Source of the DNA: Candidatus Marinacidobacterales bacterium
GTDB taxonomy: Bacteria > Acidobacteriota > Vicinamibacteria > Marinacidobacterales > SMYC01
Length of the DNA: 64,000 bases
Reading direction: 5' to 3'
Assembly: GCA_965224085.1 (NCBI GenBank)
Contig: CBDCYI010000011.1
Coordinates: 608,001-672,000, forward strand
Positions 16,648 to 22,733 of this stretch are shown here, one piece after another (the stretch's first letter is position 1; every line of letters begins with the position of its first letter). A model generated the notes under the pieces. The model was not told the DNA's origin. It was given only the letters and a program-made list of their open reading frames with translations, and did no database searches. The position numbers and the translations under genes are program-made.

Positions 16648-18458
16648 TCATGAGAGCCATAATTGCCATCGCACTATTATCGGCTGCCGCAGCCGCGCAA
16701 GACGACGCGAAGGACGATGCTTGGGACGTGGGCGCCACTTTCGGCCCCACGAGCCCGCTCGAGTTCGAGACCACCGAAGGTACGTGGATGAACCTCGACA
16801 TCAGCCCCGACGGTACCCAGATCGTCTTCGACCTTCTCGGAGATCTCTACGTGATGCCCGTTTTGGGCGGCACGGCGACGCGGCTGACCGAGGGCGCCGC
16901 GTTCGACATGCAGCCGCGTTTTTCCCCGAACGGAGAGAGCATTGCCTTTGCGAGCGACCGCGACGGGGCGACGAATCTATGGATCGTGGACCGGGACGGC
17001 GCGAACCCGCGCCAGGTTTCGAAAGAGAAGAAGTGGTTCATCAACAGCCCGACGTGGTCGGCGGACGGTGACTATCTGTTCGCGCGCCATCATTTCGTCG
17101 CCCAGCGTTCGCTCGGCGCGGGAGAGATCTGGCTCTACCACATCCGCGGCTCCGGCGGTCTTCAAGTCACCGAGAAGGTCACGTTCCAGAAGGACGCGGG
17201 CGAGCCTTCGATCTCACGCGACGGCCGCTATCTTTATTACAGCAAGGACGTCACACCGAGCCCGAAATTCGAGTACAACAAGGATCCGAACGGAGCCATC
17301 TACGCCATCGTGCGGCGCGACCTCGCGACCGGCGACGAGCGCCGCGTGGTGGACATCCAGGGAGGTGCTATGAGCCCTGCCATCTCTCCCGACGGCAAAC
17401 ATCTCGCCTTCATCCGCCGCATCCGACTTCAGAGTCATCTCTACCTCCAGAACATGGAGACGGGCGAGCAGTGGTCGATCTTCGACGGCCTCGACAAAGA
17501 CCTACAAGAAGCCTGGGCCATCCACGGGCTCTACCCGCAATACAGTTGGACCCCTGACGGGAAGAACATTTTCATATGGCGGCACGGCAAGATCTGGCGC
17601 GTGGACGTCGAGGCACAAAAGGGCGCGGAGGTGCCCTTTCGCGCCCGGGTCGAGCAGACGATCCACGACGCTTTGCGCTTTCCTCAAAGAGTCTTCGAGC
17701 CCGAGTTTCCCGTGCGGATGCTGCGCCACGTTGCGACCTCTTCGGACGGTGGGGAAGTCGTCTATAGCGCGCTCGGGCGTCTCTATCGCAAAGTCTTGCC
17801 CGACGGCGCGCCAGCTCGCCTGACGGAGGACGAGCACATCGAGTACGCGCCTTCTTATTCTCCGGACAAAAACACGATTGTCTACGCGACGTGGTCCGAT
17901 GACGAGAAAGGGAGAATCCGCACCATCGCGCCTGACGGCTCCGGAGCGCGTGAGCTCGTCTCGGTGCGTGGGCACTACACCGACCCTTCGTTCTCGCCGG
18001 ATGGGAAGCACATTGTCTATCGCCGGACGACGGGCGACTCGCTTCGCGGCGAGACCTTTGGGACGGATCCCGGTATCTACGTCGTTTCATTGGATGGAGT
18101 GGATGGCGGTGAGCCGTCTCTCGTTCGCGAGTCGGGTGTAGCGCCCCGTTTCGACCACACGGGCGAGCGCGTCTATTTCGCCGAGCGGCGTGACGATAAG
18201 ACCCTGCTCGCGAGCGTCGAGCTCGACGGTAGCGAAGAGATCGTCCATCTGGAATCCGAGAACGCCACTCAGATCGTGCCGTCCCCCGACGGGCGTTGGG
18301 TGGCTTTCGTCGAGCGGTTCAAAGTGTTCGTAGCGCCTTTTCCTCGCACGGGCCGTACGGTGAGTATCGGGCCGGAAGGATCCGCGATCCCCATCAAAGA
18401 AGTCTCGGGCGATATGGACTCCCCACGCCGGATCAAGAGAAAACGTTCTTCGTAATAG

Positions 18459-19716
18459 TCATCCGCGATTCGCTTTTTTTGTGGGCCACCGGGAGGGGTC
18501 GTAAAGGGTTCCTTGTCGAAGCATCGCAATGGCGATGGGGAGAATGCGGTCCATGACGCCTCTGAGAGCTCTGGCATGGCTGTGGCCTCTGTCACGAAGC
18601 CGGTCGTAGTGTTCTTTGAAGTGGGGGTCGTGCAAAACGGCAGTGCGTGCCCAATGGTGGAGAGCATTATTGAGGGGCAAAGAGCGAGCTCTCCTCATCA
18701 GGATCGTTGGTCGCAACTGACCGCGCTTGCCGCTCTTTTTTGTGACAGGAGCAATGCCGCCGAGAGTCCTGAAGGCGTTGAGATTACGGAGCCGAATGGG
18801 GTCGTGGGCATAGCAGAGCACGGAGGCGAGCACGTAAGCACCGACGCCGGGCAAAGAGGCAAGAATGGCAGGGTCGGAGCAATGCTCGTCGGTTAGTGCT
18901 TGCACGCGCTTGAACCACTTCTCGAGATGCTGGTCGGAGGCACGACGATGTTGTCGAACGAGGAGCAACTGCTGGAGTAGTAGTTGGAGATGCTCGGCGG
19001 TAGCTTGAGTGGTTGCGGTTGCGACCCGGAGAGGTTTTTGTTTGAGGGTATCGAGGATCTTCTCGGGTTTTAGACGTCGGATGCGGTGTTTTTGAGCGAG
19101 GGTCTCAATGGAGTGGCGGCTAAGAGGGTTGGGGCTGGATTCGAAGAAGAGTTTTAGGAGCTCGCAGAAAAAAGCGTCGAGAGCCTTGTCCTTTGGCGCG
19201 AGCGAGACGAGGTGAGGCCAGCAACGAGTAAGGAGTTCTCGGATCTGCGAGCTGAGGGCCACATGGTTTTTGACGAGTTGGTCGCGGGTACTCAGCAACC
19301 CGCGCATAGCGAGGATCTCCGTAGGTGGGAGATGCAAGCGCTGAAAGCGGTGGCCGTCGGTTCTGAGCGAATCGGCGAGAACGAAGGCGTCTCGCCGATC
19401 ATCCTTGGCGCCGCTCATAGAATGCCGGTCGCGGAAACGGTCGACCTGCTTGGGATTGATGGAGAAAATGGCGATGCCGTGGTCAAGAAAGAGCTCGACG
19501 ACGGCCCCATGAGGTTTTTCGATCGCCACCGCGATGCGCTCGGTATCTTGCGAGGTCTCTTCCAAAAGCCAGTCGATGGTTCCCGATAGTCCTTCGCGGC
19601 TATGGGGGGAAGCCTCTCTCCGCCAAGAAGTTACCTTTGGCATCGACCACACTGGCCAAGTGAAGCCATTGACCCAGGTCGATACCGACGAAGAAGTCGT
19701 ATTTGAGTTGATTCAT
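18459..19716 (-). CDS. IS110 DEDD recombinase/transposase (frameshift in the G6 run at 19604-19609)
   Basis: FFVGIDLG, AVAIEKP, KDDRRDAFVLAD, SLPGVG, GIAPVTKKSGK, HARALR. Confidence 0.92.
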
Positions 19717-19734
19717 GGAAGAACTCATTTCCGC

Positions 19735-19885
19735 CAGCGCATGTGATGTTTCATCGGCCCCTGTACTGGCGCTCGAAGCGCAACTCCCCACTGGATGTCC
19801 ATCACAAAAGAATTGCCGGCACGCATGTCCATTCCTGGCGCTAGGAGCGCAGGGCGACGTATGGCGTTGCCGGCAAGCTGCTGAC
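19735..19885 (-). ncRNA. Putative IS110 bridge RNA (target- and donor-binding loops)
   Basis: Two stem-loops (19742-48/19800-06 and 19813-21/19868-76), each with an inner hairpin flanked by segments that match the element ends or the insertion site. Confidence 0.8.
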
Positions 19886-19923
19886 GAAATCGAAAATAGT
19901 CCAAGCTCATCGTGATATTTGCT

Positions 19924-20340
19924 CTACCATGGCAATCGGAGTTGTCGCGCGATGCCACGAGTTCGTGCTCGGTTTTTTCTCGGTAGTTTCGGGCGAAGCA
20001 CGTCCGAGAGTTTTTCTCGAATGTAAAGAACATAAGGCGGGTCTAGATATTGACTTTGCACTTCCTGGAGCACAGGTGAAAAATAACGAAGGGAGCGAAT
20101 GGGCTGCAGTGGCTCCTCATGTTCTTGTAGCTCCCTACGAGCGCAACCCAGAAGTAGGGCACACTCGAATTCGTGTAACGGGACTCCTTGGCGGTAGAGC
20201 TGCGTCGCGATGAAGCGGTCGTCGCGCCGTGGCCGCTCAGGTGTGTTCGGAATGGAAAGATAGAGGTCCAAAATCGTCCGGACGTAATTGTTTTCTGTCA
20301 GAGCATCGCTCGTGAGCGGTTCATTACCCAGCTTCGACAT
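19924..20340 (-). CDS. IS110 accessory hypothetical protein, 138 aa
   Basis: Intact ORF (YVRTILDLY...ALLLGCARR...PIRSLRYF) whose start overlaps the upstream ORF; lies inside the element. Confidence 0.7.
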   Translation of the reverse strand: MSKLGNEPLTSDALTENNYVRTILDLYLSIPNTPERPRRDDRFIATQLYRQGVPLHEFECALLLGCARRELQEHEEPLQPIRSLRYFSPVLQEVQSQYLDPPYVLYIREKLSDVLRPKLPRKNRARTRGIARQLRLPW

Positions 20341-20738
20341 CCTTTAGCCTCCCGCGTCGGCCGCAGATACAGCATTTGGCATATCTGATACTGTCAATCT
20401 TCGTTTTCATTGAATGAGCCATCGGGCCACTAGCTTGAATTTCACGAACTCCTAGACTGCCAGAATTACTGGGGTGAATGAACCCTTGCTCCGTCACTAT
20501 TTTCGCCGCCTGGCGTAGACGATAATTCTGTTGCCGAGCCGCGTGGAGTTTTCGTGAGTTGAAACCTTTCTGGTAATTTCGGTTATTTTCGCGCTGGTTC
20601 TTATCGCCGGGTTTCGTCACGGCAGGTTGGACCGCAGTAGCACTGTCCCTGGTAACATGACTTGCAGATGAAGAAAGGCATCCCACAGCTTTTGTTGCGG
20701 CAGAAAAGCCGGAGAAGAACGACAGGTTTGGTGGCCAT
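20324..20738 (-). CDS. IS110 accessory Cys-rich (putative Zn-binding) basic protein, frameshift near 20603
   Basis: CRNKSC..FFICKSC..CYCGPTCR, then NRNYQ..HAARQQNYR and a C-terminal CCICG. Confidence 0.65.
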
Positions 20739-22445
20739 TCGGAACTCAGCAAAGTGCTGGACGATGGCCGCCCGGATGTGAGAGGCTAGCTTCAACTTGT
20801 AGTGGAGCGCCTCCTCCGGGGGCCATCCAAACATCAGAACCCCGGTCGTTTGTAGCGGCTGGGGCTCACTATTGTCGCACAGCAGGTTCACCCTCTTCTT
20901 GCCGGCGCGAGACGATCTGACTGACTCGCGCCAAAGGCGCGAGAGGATGCTGGCCTCGCGCCAGAGGCGCGGGATGAGGCCTTGTACACAGACATTTCCT
21001 ACCGACTCTTCCCGCAACACACGCTTTCGCTGCACTGATGCTTCGGCAAGCGTACAGGGCTACTACGTCCATTGGTCCGGTGACAGCGGGAAGATCCACT
21101 GGAGTCTCGGACCGGAGCTCTACACGCTTTCGCTCGACCCGACCCTCGAGCTCGAGGGCGAAGCGGCGCGGACTGCAATCGGTTTCATGACCGCGAGCGA
21201 CCAGCCGTCCGGGAGCATCACGCTCGTCGGTGCCCGCATCGTCACGATGGACGGGGACCGTGTGATCGAGAACGGGACCGTGGTCGTGGACGAGAACCGC
21301 ATCACGGCGGTGGGACCGTCCGATTCCGTGTCGGTGCCGTCCGGCGCCACGCGCATCGATGTCTCTGGCCGCACGATCATTCCGGGCATCGTGGACGTCC
21401 ACGCTCACGTCGGAAGCGAGAGCGGGGGTATCCTCTCGGAGCAAAACTGGAGATTCGTCGCGAACGTGGCCTATGGCGTGACCACCTCGCACGATCCTTC
21501 GAACGGTACGGAGATGGTGTTCACCAACTCCGAGATGATCCGCGCGGGCAAGAAGCTCGGCCCGAGACTCTACTCGACCGGCACGATTCTCTACGGCGCC
21601 GAAACCCCGTTCAAAGCCGTCATCGAGAAATACGACGACGCGCTCGCGCATCTCCGGCGCCTGAAGGCTGTGGGTGCCTTCTCCGTCAAGAGCTACAACC
21701 AGCAGCGTCGTGATGTACGCCAGATGATCATCAAAGCGGCGCGCGAGCTCGAGATGATGGTCGTCCCCGAAGGCGGCTCGCTTCTCTATATGGACGAGAC
21801 CTTCGTCTATGACGGCCATACCGGGCTCGAGCATTCGCTCCCCGTGCCGGTTTTATACGACGACGTCGTGAACTTGTACGGGAGAAGTCGTACCGGCTAC
21901 ACGCCCACGCTCATCGTCGGCTATGGCGGTCTCTCGGGCGAGAATTACTGGTACCAGCACGACGAAGTTTGGGCGAACGAGAACCTGCTCCAGTACACGC
22001 CGCGAGAGATCGTGGATGCGCGCGCACGTCGCCGCACGATGGCGCCCGAGGACGATTTCAACCATGTCCTGATCTCGGAAGGCGCGAAGAAGATCCTCGA
22101 CGCGGGAGGGCTCGTCCAGCTCGGCGCCCACGGACAGCTGCAAGGTCTCGGTGCGCACTGGGAGCTCTGGATGCTCGAGCAAGGCGGGATGACGGAGCTC
22201 GAAGCGCTCCGATCCGCCACGCTCATGGGTGCGGAATATATCGGCCTCGACGGCGAGCTCGGCTCGATCGAGGAAGGCAAGCTCGCCGACCTCGTCGTGC
22301 TCGGCAAAAACCCACTCGAGAACATCCGGAACAGCGAGAGCGTTCAGATGGTCATGCTCAACGGCCGGCTCTACGACGCGGCAACGATGAGCGAGATCGG
22401 GAACCATCCCAAGGAGCGAAAGCCGTTCTACTGGCAGTCTGCGCG

Positions 22446-22733
22446 ATGAGCCTGCTCATGCTTCTGCTGCTTGCTCAGTTCAACTACGATGCGAAAGAGG
22501 CGCTCGCTGTGGACGCGTCGGAGGTCGAGCTCGTCGAGGGCGCGCGCTTGCAGGAAATCTCCTATGCGAGTCCCAAAGGCGGGCGCGTCCCCGGATATTT
22601 GATCGCGCCTCAAGGCGCCGGACCGCATGCGGGCATCGTGTTCGTTCACTGGGGCCAGGGAAACCGTACCGAGTTCGTCGCGGCCACCCAGGCCGCGATG
22701 AGGCGTATCGCTTCCGACGCTACCCAGCCATAG
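22446..22733 (+). pseudogene. Alpha/beta hydrolase N-terminal fragment
   Basis: Signal peptide, ISYASPKGGRVPGYL, VFVHWGQG; truncated. Confidence 0.55.

What the first reader, a model, noticed from the sequence alone, without database searches (positions are those of the whole stretch)
19735..19885. Bridge RNA readable by eye: donor loop matches both distant element ends
Seen, donor loop: outer stem TGTGATG/CATCACA (19742-48/19800-06) and inner hairpin GCGC-TCGAA-GCGC. These are flanked by ACTCCCCAC (19783-91, identical to the end at 18418-26) and CCTGTAC (19760-66, reverse complement of GTACAGG at 21052-58). Seen, target loop: outer stem TTGCCGGCA/TGCCGGCAA with GGGCGAC (19852-58; 6/7 match to the insertion-site GGGCTAC) and CCAT (19829-32; complement of ATGG). 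The opposite-strand guide layout is the one described for IS621 bridge RNA. It independently supports 21056 as the true left end.
Basis: partly seen in the sequence, partly recalled or inferred. Interest (0 to 1): 0.8.

Follow-up and report, generated by a model that had tools for sequence, protein, structure and literature searches.

The report
Bridge RNA of a kinase-targeting IS110
The stretch encodes the guide ("bridge") RNA of an IS110-type jumping gene, a known kind of system, and this lineage aims itself at the DNA coding for the ATP-binding loop of protein kinase genes.

Summary
Confirmed. Window 18418-21058 is a 2,641-bp IS110-group insertion sequence on the minus strand. It interrupts a beta-propeller/amidohydrolase gene. 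Window 19726-19891 (minus strand), just upstream of the transposase, encodes a bridge RNA with a target-binding loop (19813-19876) and a donor-binding loop (19742-19806).

Within the window alone the matches are barely beyond chance. The proof comes from other copies:
- Own-genome copies fix the ends and give a target consensus, GGAATGG|GCGACGT, equal to the loop guides (7 + 9 nt).
- 52 of 60 homologous loci carry the same RNA upstream of the transposase. 35 of 38 base pairs show compensatory changes.
- Each RNA predicts its own junctions (0 of 10,000 permutations reach the observed match).

This is a new member of a known kind (IS621-type bridge RNA, 2024). The window copy is degenerate: its transposase is frameshifted and it sits in a poor target (5/7 + 6/9 matches). 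Three intact copies lie elsewhere in the genome.

Two extras:
- The lineage inserts into the codons of the Ser/Thr-kinase glycine loop (GGM|GEVY), and its guides vary at codon third positions.
- It carries one or two unknown ORFs between the left end and the RNA.

Transcription was not shown.

The parts
18418..21058 (-). IS110-group insertion sequence, 2,641 bp including one copy of the core. The right end (RE) lies at 18418 and the left end (LE) at 21056/21058.
   Evidence: Three other full copies (2,639 bp) plus partial and diverged copies in the same genome share identity up to exactly these ends.
18416..18417 (.). Core dinucleotide GG (CC in element orientation), target-derived copy at the RE junction.
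   Evidence: GG flanks the element on both sides in all 11 low ends and all 9 high ends examined.
21057..21058 (.). Core dinucleotide GG at the LE junction.
   Evidence: Joining 18417 to 21059 restores the reading frame of the interrupted gene.
19726..19891 (-). Bridge RNA, at the extent of the covariance model. A closing helix pairs 19880-86 with 19732-38.
   Evidence: Model R1 finds a full-length match directly upstream of the transposase in 52 of 60 homologous loci and in 41 of 41 metagenome contigs. 92% of cells are paired, and 35 of 38 pairs show changes on both sides.
19813..19876 (-). Target-binding loop: stem 19868-76/19813-21, a second short stem 19864-66/19822-24, and an inner hairpin 19847-50/19838-41.
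19852..19860 (-). Left target guide, RNA ACGUCGCCC. It is identical to the top strand of the left target plus core.
   Evidence: Flanks of the other variant-A copies match 7-8 of 9 (6 of 9 at the partial copy C5:1945126); the window's own flank matches 6 of 9.
19829..19835 (-). Right target guide, RNA GGAAUGG, followed by the handshake bases AC (+ strand 19827-28).
   Evidence: 4 of 8 variant-A flanks are GGAATGG. 2 of 3 variant-B copies, whose guide is GGUAUGG, sit at GGTATGG.
19742..19806 (-). Donor-binding loop: stem 19800-06/19742-48, a second stem 19794-97/19752-55, and an inner hairpin 19778-81/19769-72.
19783..19791 (-). Left donor guide, RNA GUGGGGAGU, equal to the last 9 nt of the right end (18418-26).
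   Evidence: In relatives a changed guide (for example GAAGAGAGU or GUAGGGAGU) is found again at their own right end.
19760..19766 (-). Right donor guide, RNA GUACAGG, complementary to core plus the first 5 nt of the left end (21052-58). It is followed by the handshake bases GG (+ strand 19758-59).
18459..19717 (-). IS110-family DEDD/Ser recombinase gene. In this copy an extra G in the run 19604-09 breaks the frame.
   Evidence: Pfam PF01548 and PF02371. NCBIfam NF033542 scores 162.9 bits against a cut-off of 140. The frameshift is present in this copy only, of four full copies. The intact 418-aa form is shown.
19924..20340 (-). ORF-B, 138 aa, function unknown. It ends 38 nt before the closing helix of the RNA.
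20324..21035 (-). ORF-A, a Cys-rich protein (236 aa as the longest frame; conserved core about 138 aa). In this copy an extra A at 20603 breaks the frame.
16650..18417 (+). 5' part of the interrupted host gene (PD40 beta-propeller repeats).
21059..22449 (+). 3' part of the interrupted host gene (amidohydrolase domain).

Best explanation
Window 19726-19891, read on the minus strand, encodes the bridge RNA of a 2.64-kb IS110-group insertion sequence (18418-21058).

The RNA has two internal loops.
[quoted passage not shown] - In the second loop, GUGGGGAGU and GUACAGG recognise in the same way the joined right and left ends of the excised circular element.

A DEDD/serine recombinase, encoded just downstream, would use the RNA to bring donor and target together and exchange strands at the shared CC core. 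This inserts the element without a scar.

Shown here: the anatomy, the structural covariation, and the fit between each RNA and its own element's ends and targets. Inferred from IS621: circle formation, RNA binding by the recombinase and the strand-exchange chemistry.

This particular copy cannot make its own recombinase because of a frameshift. Its RNA is identical to that of three intact copies, which could act on it in trans.
For: (1) Recombinase. Pfam PF01548 (2.8e-31) and PF02371 (1.1e-11) match. NCBIfam NF033542, 'IS110 family RNA-guided transposase', scores 162.9 bits against a cut-off of 140. The best PDB hit is the IS621 transposase 8wt6 (2.2e-7). D13, D106, D109 and S328 align with its D11, D102, D105 and S241 (with residue roles taken from passages of PMC11208158).

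(2) Ends. Four full copies and partial copies in the genome fix the ends and show GG on both sides.

(3) Guides and targets within the genome. The target consensus equals the guides. A diverged subfamily whose guide is GGUAUGG sits at GGTATGG in 2 of 3 copies.

(4) Conservation of the RNA. 52 of 60 loci encoding a relative of the recombinase (33-90% identity) have a full-length model match directly upstream on the sense strand. 92% of cells are paired. 35 of 38 pairs change on both sides, 0 of 500 shuffles reach this, and slid controls give 26-39% paired. RNAalifold recovers 30 pairs, 26 of them with compensatory changes. Frequent U-G pairs (19 and 21 sequences at two of the pairs) fit only this strand.

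(5) Each RNA predicts its own junctions across those 52 loci. On the right, 32 junctions were found and 16 match 7/7. Over 24 unique pairs the own mean is 5.54 against 3.45 for other loci's guides, and the non-core positions give 3.71/5 against 1.62. 0 of 10,000 permutations reach the observed value. On the left, 39 unique pairs give 7.13/10 against 4.76, again 0 of 10,000.

(6) Close lineage. 41 metagenome contigs all carry the RNA. The only variable position of the right target guide agrees with the flank in 15 of 23 insertions, against 7.0 expected (2 of 20,000 permutations). The left target guide scores 7.91/9 against 7.46 (67 of 20,000).

(7) Handshake bases. The AC in the target loop is complementary to donor positions 6-7 (GT) in 39 of 41 loci. 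The first handshake base of the donor loop pairs with target position 7 in 12 of 16 unique combinations.
Against: - No transcript, 5' end or recombinase binding was shown.
- A simple sigma-70 scan found no promoter in 18350-21150 (0 found, 0.9 expected).
- No conserved motif is visible upstream of the RNA across the lineage.
- No Rfam family matched.
- Folding energy alone is unremarkable.
- The alignments used for the pair counts were fitted to my model, which favours the proposed structure.
- The closing helix (82% paired) was not recovered by RNAalifold.
- The left donor guide does not pair with the core. Its next bases are U and then the stem G, whereas IS621 is described as pairing with the core in all four guides.
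- The window's own target fits poorly: 5/7 and 6/9.
- 20 of 52 right junctions and 5 of 52 left junctions were not found. Some junctions that were found are probably chance sites, with scores as low as 0-3.
Confidence: 0.93

Rival explanations
1. The matches are DNA-level features. On this view they are sub-terminal copies of the element's ends that serve as protein-binding sites, or a structured 5' leader that only regulates translation of the transposase, with no guide role.
For: No transcript has been shown. The region lies directly upstream of the transposase start (19717). The donor-loop sequences are strongly conserved even among recombinases only 35% identical, as protein-binding sites might be.
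Against: - The variable first loop tracks each element's target flanks, which are not part of the element.
- The stems covary with compensatory changes and with U-G pairs that would be C-A on the other strand.
- The two sides of each loop match opposite strands of the DNA, as RNA guides do.
Confidence: 0.04
2. This is chance resemblance. Short GC-rich words recur in a 64-kb window, and the stems are ordinary palindromes.
For: Window-only statistics are weak: 5 of 100 and 12 of 100 shuffles reach the observed counts. The folding z-score is -1.39.
Against: The same architecture occurs in 52 of 60 homologous loci and in 41 of 41 metagenome contigs. Guide-junction agreement was reached by no permutation out of 10,000.
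Confidence: 0.01
3. It is an IS1111-type seekRNA system rather than an IS110-group bridge RNA. The principle is the same, but the RNA would lie in the right end, downstream of the recombinase.
For: Both groups share the recombinase domains.
Against: The RNA lies upstream of the gene. The right end is only 41 nt long (18418-58). The paper places the IS110-group RNA in the LE and the IS1111-group RNA in the RE (passage in PMC11208160).
Confidence: 0.02

Closest known systems
IS621 bridge RNA and recombinase (IS110 group; Durrant et al. 2024, PMC11208160; Hiraizumi et al. 2024, PMC11208158; passages read)
   Same: - DEDD plus Ser recombinase.
- RNA upstream of the gene, in the left end.
- Target loop first, donor loop second.
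- Each loop consists of stem, 5' guide, inner hairpin and 3' guide.
- The 5' guides (9 nt) pair with the bottom strand and the 3' guides (7 nt) with the top strand.
- A shared 2-nt core flanks the inserted element.
- Handshake bases follow the 3' guides.
- The right end is short.
   Different: - The core is CC, not CT.
- The left donor guide stops before the core.
- A covarying helix closes both loops together (7 pairs, 82% paired). I did not check whether IS621 has one.
- The RNA lies 1,166 nt from the left end instead of tens of nt, because one or two ORFs sit in between.
- The natural target is a protein-coding motif, not a REP element.
- Sequence likeness to IS621 is low (E = 2.2e-7, mostly in the C-terminal domain).
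Canonical relatives of this element in Acidobacteriota, Gemmatimonadota, Alphaproteobacteria and Myxococcota genomes (loci L018-L073, record titles)
   Same: They share the RNA model and nearly the same donor guides (GUGGGGAGU / GUACAGG) and CC core.
   Different: - Their left end lies 9-150 nt from the RNA in most loci, with no ORF between.
- Their target guides are quite different (for example CCGUAACGC / AUCGGGG).
- Several carry cargo on the other side: the right junction lies up to about 3-4 kb beyond the recombinase gene (for example L031, L041, L066, L023).
Cargo-carrying 'expanded' IS110 elements (bioRxiv 10.64898/2026.08.14.744561; abstract and passages read)
   Same: An IS110 element larger than the about 1.5-kb norm that carries extra genes.
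   Different: Here the addition is small (0.6-1.2 kb), consists of the same one or two unknown ORFs throughout a lineage, and sits between the left end and the RNA. That preprint describes mostly plasmid-derived and resistance cargo. Its supplements were not seen.

Membership tests
IS110-group bridge-RNA system | Recombinase with a DEDD RuvC-like domain and a Tnp domain bearing a catalytic Ser | tested here: met
   PF01548 and PF02371 match. NF033542 scores above its cut-off. D13, D106, D109 and S328 align with IS621 catalytic residues; E66 is assigned by motif only. In the window copy the gene is frameshifted.
IS110-group bridge-RNA system | Non-coding RNA gene in the left end, upstream of the recombinase and on the same strand | tested here: met
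   The model match ends 9 nt before the ATG in the window. The same position is seen in 52 of 60 loci. Opposite-strand scores are far lower (27 against 207 bits in L033).
IS110-group bridge-RNA system | Two internal loops, each closed by a stem and holding an inner hairpin, supported by covariation | tested here: met
   (35 of 38 pairs with changes on both sides; 0 of 500 shuffles). Caveat: the alignment was fitted to the model.
IS110-group bridge-RNA system | First-loop guides complementary to the two halves of the target on opposite strands | tested here: met
   own genome; 52 loci; 41 contigs.
IS110-group bridge-RNA system | Second-loop guides complementary to the joined element ends on opposite strands | tested here: met
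   9/9 and 7/7 in the window. Variant guides in relatives are found again at their own ends. The left donor guide does not cover the core.
IS110-group bridge-RNA system | Core dinucleotide common to donor and target, and scarless insertion | tested here: met
   GG lies on both sides in every copy. Joining the flanks restores the host reading frame.
IS110-group bridge-RNA system | Handshake bases 3' of the 3' guides, complementary to positions 6-7 of the other DNA | tested here: inconclusive
   Target loop: the AC fits GT in 39 of 41 loci, but neither side varies. Donor loop: the position-7 pair holds in 12 of 16 combinations and the position-6 pair in 6 of 16.
IS110-group bridge-RNA system | The RNA is expressed and bound by the recombinase, and a circular RE-LE intermediate forms | not testable with these tools
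   The RNA-library contigs that were laid cannot show transcription, and no joints were seen.
IS1111 group (seekRNA in the right end) | RNA downstream of the recombinase in a long right end | tested here: not met
   The right end is 41 nt, and the RNA lies upstream.
Rfam families | Match to a curated RNA family | tested here: not met
   Only two chance-level hits to unrelated families, at E = 1.8 and 7.1.

The most novel reading that the evidence does not exclude
This bridge-RNA lineage is specialised on a protein-coding motif, the glycine-rich ATP-binding loop of Hanks-type Ser/Thr kinases (G-x-G-G-M | G-E/D-V-Y).

Its target guides diversify almost only at the positions that face codon third bases: GGN ATG GGN GAN GT. 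The RNA therefore follows synonymous variation within a large family of paralogous host genes. One variant has moved to G-T-V kinases.

The lineage also keeps a Cys-rich ORF, with or without a second ORF, between the left end and the RNA. The RNA starts about 15-45 nt after that ORF's stop codon. It would then be made as the tail of a longer transcript rather than from the junction promoter described for IS621.
Probability: 0.6. Interest if true: 0.55.

Novelty: new member of a known kind. Interest (0 to 1): 0.4.

Why it matters
It shows that a bridge RNA can be recognised by eye and then proven by comparison alone. It also adds a well-resolved natural family: 4 guide variants in named genomes and 41 more in metagenomes, each with known ends and targets. 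That is the kind of material used to derive rules for guide design.

The kinase-loop target is an unusual case of an RNA-guided element living on a conserved coding motif of a gene family. It has consequences for the host: at least 7 kinase genes are hit in this genome. IS110 excision is described as scarless, so such insertions might be reversible. That last point is an inference.

The conserved small ORFs upstream of the RNA are candidates for an unknown accessory role.

Tried and rejected
- **Rfam.** An E-value search of 18300-21300 returned nothing relevant.
- **Thermodynamic folding.** The z-scores were -1.39 (minus strand) and -0.58 (plus strand). I judged these uninformative because of the large loops.
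- **Promoters.** The sigma-70 scan found none. A right-anchored listing of the 85 nt upstream of the RNA in 33 distinct sequences showed no shared motif.
- **RNA evidence.** One search for runs and one laying were done. The four runs laid are kept as contigs, and two are only guessed to be RNA. Pieces 90-99% alike cover parts of the element, with the highest summed depth over 19755-19851, the conserved donor loop. This shows neither transcription nor strand nor ends. No joints were seen, so there is no circle junction. Shares were small (0.07-0.22), so I name no habitat. Loose ends of one run at 18414 and 21059 continue into kinase-like sequence, which agrees but is not independent proof.
- **The genome of L033.** It has only one truncated copy and a remnant, so it gave no further targets.
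- **ORF-A and ORF-B.**
  - Neither has a Pfam or NCBIfam family.
  - ORF-A has 12 relatives in the large protein set, none named.
  - The Atlas gives only clusters of hypothetical proteins.
  - The ORF-A model has mean pLDDT 73.5. It shows a zinc-ribbon-like start, a 43-residue helix, a disordered linker and a C-terminal hairpin. It has no PDB match at E <= 10.
- **ORF-A as a dedicated IS110 partner.** This is not supported outside the lineage. ORF-A-like genes were found in 20 of 400 other genomes of the phylum, often in several copies. Only 1 of the 26 loci checked has the RNA and recombinase within 1.5 kb, and there the ORF is on the other strand. The count of 20 includes the unpublished genome G049.
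- **Literature on kinase targeting.** One search (IS110, protein kinase, target site, Acidobacteria) found nothing relevant. The word 'kinase' does not occur in the main text of PMC11208160. I saw no supplements, and those of that paper list thousands of targets. 'Not described' is therefore not established.
- **Rows dropped.**
  - One search used 51 of the 62 sources. I left out three loci whose RNA is identical to another's (L019, L052, L067) and eight without a strong match (L040, L043, L048, L069, L070, L074, L075, L076).
  - needed 30 nt of flank, so they use 22 left and 23 right junctions of 41 contigs.
  - Searches count identical guide/flank pairs once.

Full report
**What is in the sequence**

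The region lies directly upstream of an IS110-family recombinase gene on the minus strand. That gene carries PF01548 and PF02371. NCBIfam names it 'IS110 family RNA-guided transposase', at 162.9 bits against a cut-off of 140.

Read on the minus strand, the RNA runs 5' to 3' as follows.
- Half of a closing helix: CGUCAGC.
- A first loop: UUGCCGGCA / ACGCCAUACGUCGCCCU / GCGC-UCCUA-GCGC / CAGGAAUGGACAUGCG / UGCCGGCAA.
- A second loop: UGUGAUG / GACAUCCAGUGGGGAGUU / GCGC-UUCGA-GCGC / CAGUACAGGGGCCGAUGAAA / CAUCACA.
- The other half of the closing helix: GCUGGCG.

Within the window alone the by-eye matches are not compelling.
- The 9-mer occurs twice against 0.35 expected, and 5 of 100 shuffles reach that.
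- The 7-mer occurs five times against 2.38 expected, and 12 of 100 shuffles reach that.
- The folding energy has z = -1.39.
- No Rfam family matches.

**Boundaries**

The window's genome (G000) holds three more full copies, two internally deleted copies, several truncated ones and a diverged subfamily at 87-91% identity. Identity among copies stops at ...ATGG|ACTCCCCAC on the low side and ...GCGTACAGG|G on the high side. GG is present on both sides in all 11 low ends and all 9 high ends.

The element is therefore 18418-21058, with one copy of a 2-nt core (CC in its own orientation). Joining 18417 to 21059 restores the frame of a PD40-propeller/amidohydrolase gene.

The window copy differs from the three identical sister copies in four ways: an extra G in the run 19604-09, T for C at 20602, an extra A at 20603, and A for G at 20839. 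The first change breaks the recombinase frame after about codon 37, and the third breaks ORF-A. The sister copies encode an intact 418-aa protein. In that protein D13, D106, D109 and S328 align with IS621 D11, D102, D105 and S241 (residue roles from passages of PMC11208158).

**Guides against donor and target in this genome**

In element orientation the donor (the joined ends) reads GTGGGGAGT-CC-TGTAC.
- The 5' side of the second loop repeats GUGGGGAGU, so it would pair with the bottom strand.
- The 3' side, GUACAGG, is complementary to CCTGTAC on the top strand.

The target consensus from the other copies is ACGTCGC-CC-ATTCC.
- The 5' side of the first loop repeats ACGUCGCCC.
- The 3' side, GGAAUGG, is complementary to CCATTCC.

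This is the arrangement described for IS621: first loop target, second loop donor, 5' sides pairing with the bottom strand over 8-9 nt and 3' sides with the top strand over 4-7 nt (passages read in PMC11208160).

Copy by copy, the other full or internally deleted variant-A insertions fit 6-7 of 7 and 7-8 of 9. The truncated copies fit less well (C4:1704400 5 of 7; C5:1945126 6 of 9). The window copy fits only 5 of 7 and 6 of 9, the poorest of the full copies. The diverged subfamily has the guide GGUAUGG, and two of its three copies sit at GGTATGG.

**Homologous elements**

A scan of one genome per species found 60 loci encoding a relative of the recombinase at 33-90% identity. A covariance model was built from four close sequences with a structure I specified: 38 pairs in 7 helices. 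It finds a full-length match on the sense strand directly upstream of the gene in 52 of the 60 loci at E <= 3e-6.

On the alignment of 51 non-identical matches:
- 92% of cells form a standard pair.
- 35 of 38 pairs show changes on both sides.
- No shuffle of 500 reaches any of the five measures.
- Sliding the partners by 1-3 columns drops pairing to 26-39%.

That alignment was fitted to the model, which favours the structure. RNAalifold on the same alignment predicts 30 pairs of its own, 26 of them with compensatory changes. It recovers all helices except the closing one. U-G pairs are common at several positions, which fits only the transposase-sense strand.

**The decisive test: does each RNA predict its own element's junctions?**

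For each of the 52 loci I took the guide segments from the model alignment.
- The right junction was located using only the donor guide: at most 1 mismatch, fewest mismatches first, then nearest.
- The left junction was located using only the exact complement of the other donor guide, taking the nearest site upstream.
- I then compared the flanking host sequence with the target guides.

Right junction:
- A site was found in 32 of 52 loci.
- The 7 nt after it match the locus's own guide 7/7 in 16 loci, 6/7 in 3, 5/7 in 8 and fewer in 5.
- Over 24 unique pairs with 18 different guides, the own mean is 5.54 against 3.45 for other loci's guides. For the five non-core positions it is 3.71 against 1.62.
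- 0 of 10,000 permutations reach the observed value.

Left junction:
- A site was found in 47 of 52 loci, giving 39 unique pairs.
- The own mean is 7.13 of 10 against 4.76.
- 0 of 10,000 permutations reach it.

Low scores include probable chance sites 1.9-2 kb away and one-base offsets in runs of C.

The donor guides are much more conserved than the target guides. Where they do differ (GAAGAGAGU, GUAGGGAGU, GUAGGAAGU, GUGGGAAGU), the same word is found at that element's right end, followed by the predicted target half.

The handshake bases described for IS621 were tested.
- The AC after the right target guide is complementary to donor positions 6-7 in 39 of 41 loci, but both sides are invariant.
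- The first base after the right donor guide pairs with target position 7 in 12 of 16 unique combinations.

**What the element aims at**

Translating the flanks shows that the preferred target is coding sequence. GGA ATG GGC GAC GT reads G-M-G-D-V.

In this genome 7 of 13 insertion loci lie in the glycine loop of Ser/Thr kinase genes, for example ...YEILSPVGKGGM | GEVYKAKDTRLDRTVAIKVL. For two of them the downstream flank matches Pfam Pkinase from profile position 13 onward, at 3.3e-32 and 4.8e-53. The window copy is one of the exceptions.

The two closest named relatives also sit in kinase genes. They are L033 (90% identity, record titled a Marinacidobacterales MAG) and L017 (62% identity). 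Their guides would read GGA ATG GGA GAG GT and GGG ATG GGT GAA GT.

A metagenome scan with the conserved donor-loop pattern gave 41 contigs, all with a full RNA at 148-203 bits. Junctions with at least 30 nt of flank were found on the left in 22 contigs and on the right in 23.
- All 23 right flanks encode ...G-x-G-G-M.
- All 22 left flanks encode G-(E/V/T)-V-(Y/F/W)-... One of these has a stop at the fourth codon.

Within this lineage the guides vary at three positions, all of which face codon third bases. The single exception is L149. Its guide ACGGUACCC lies next to GGGAACCGT, a G-T-V kinase, matching 8 of 9.

At the variable position of the right target guide, guide and flank agree in 15 of 23 insertions against 7.0 expected (2 of 20,000 permutations). 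The left target guide scores 7.91 of 9 against 7.46 (67 of 20,000).

The genome holds no unoccupied perfect 14-mer for variant A. It holds one for variant B, in a kinase gene.

I found no description of kinase targeting in one literature search, nor in the main text of the IS621 paper. Supplements were closed, so this is not a claim of priority.

**The extra 1.1 kb**

In most relatives the left end lies 9-150 nt from the RNA. In the kinase-targeting lineage the distance is 599-620 nt in 7 of the 24 metagenome contigs with a left junction, and 990-1,203 nt in the other 17. It is 605 nt in L017 and 1,166 nt in L033 and in the window.
- The short form holds ORF-A. It is detected in 23 of the 24 contigs, at 29-80% identity.
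- The long form adds ORF-B, detected in 17 of 17 long forms and 0 of 7 short forms.

ORF-A has a conserved core: C-x2-4-C, C-x2-C, Y-C-x3-C, a basic helix with N-R and R-Q, then C-x2-C-G-R-G. No family or name was found for it. Its model has no PDB look-alike.

ORF-A-like genes also occur, often in several copies, in 20 of 400 other genomes of the phylum. This count includes the unpublished G049. They are mostly without this RNA or recombinase nearby: only 1 of 26 loci has them. ORF-A is therefore captured cargo that the lineage has kept, and its role is unknown.

The RNA starts about 15-45 nt after the stop codon of the last ORF. No shared promoter-like motif is visible there. I infer co-transcription with the ORFs, but this is not shown.

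Cargo-bearing IS110 elements have been reported in a 2026 preprint, of which I read the abstract and passages.

**Verdict**

Both the observation and the interpretation are right. The object is a bridge RNA of the IS621 type, in a degenerate copy of an element that is active or recently active in this genome. It is a new member of a known kind.

The kinase-loop specialisation, the third-base pattern of guide variation and the conserved ORFs upstream of the RNA are the parts a specialist might find new.

Expression, recombinase binding and circle formation remain untested. RNA-library contigs were uninformative.

Noticed in passing
window 19604-19609; 20602-20603; 20839: The window copy differs from three identical sister copies. 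It has an extra G in a G-run, which frameshifts the transposase. It also has T for C plus an extra A, which frameshifts ORF-A, and one substitution. This copy is non-autonomous, but its RNA is intact.
   Followed up: yes
G000:C4:1682517-1685155, C11:289314-291952, C9:115784-118249, C5:1762845-1765446, C11:764578, C4:1482119, C9:747941: 7 of 13 insertion loci in this genome lie in the glycine-loop codons of Ser/Thr kinase genes. All 45 junctions read in 41 metagenome contigs do so too.
   Followed up: yes
window 19924-21035 (minus strand): Two unknown ORFs lie between the left end and the bridge RNA. ORF-A is Cys-rich and ORF-B is 138 aa. ORF-A is kept across the lineage, and ORF-B occurs only in the long form.
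   Followed up: partly
G000:C5:333088-334698: An internally deleted copy lacks element positions 282-1307, which is almost the whole transposase gene. It keeps both ends, the complete bridge RNA and the two ORFs. It looks like a non-autonomous derivative that still carries its own guide.
   Followed up: partly
G000:C11:764578-766945: A variant-B copy is cut short at 766918. It abuts a 28-bp inverted fragment of a variant-A right end, which has its own GGAATGG flank. This suggests nested or rearranged insertions.
   Followed up: no
L031, L041, L066, L023, L067, L056 (loci): In several distant relatives the predicted right junction lies up to about 3-4 kb beyond the recombinase gene. It still shows a perfect or near-perfect match to the target guide. 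These elements appear to carry cargo on the right-end side.
   Followed up: no
G015, G385, G399, G393 (loci L080-L106): ORF-A-like genes occur in 4-7 copies per genome in some other genomes of the phylum, without this RNA or recombinase within 1.5 kb. They may belong to another mobile element.
   Followed up: partly
window 16650-18417 and 21059-22449: The host gene split by this copy encodes a PD40 beta-propeller fused to an amidohydrolase domain. The site, GATATGG|GCTACTA, is an off-consensus target.
   Followed up: yes
window 19880-19886 with 19732-19738: A 7-bp helix closes both loops together. All 7 pairs show compensatory changes in relatives and 82% of cells are paired, but RNAalifold did not recover it.
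   Followed up: partly
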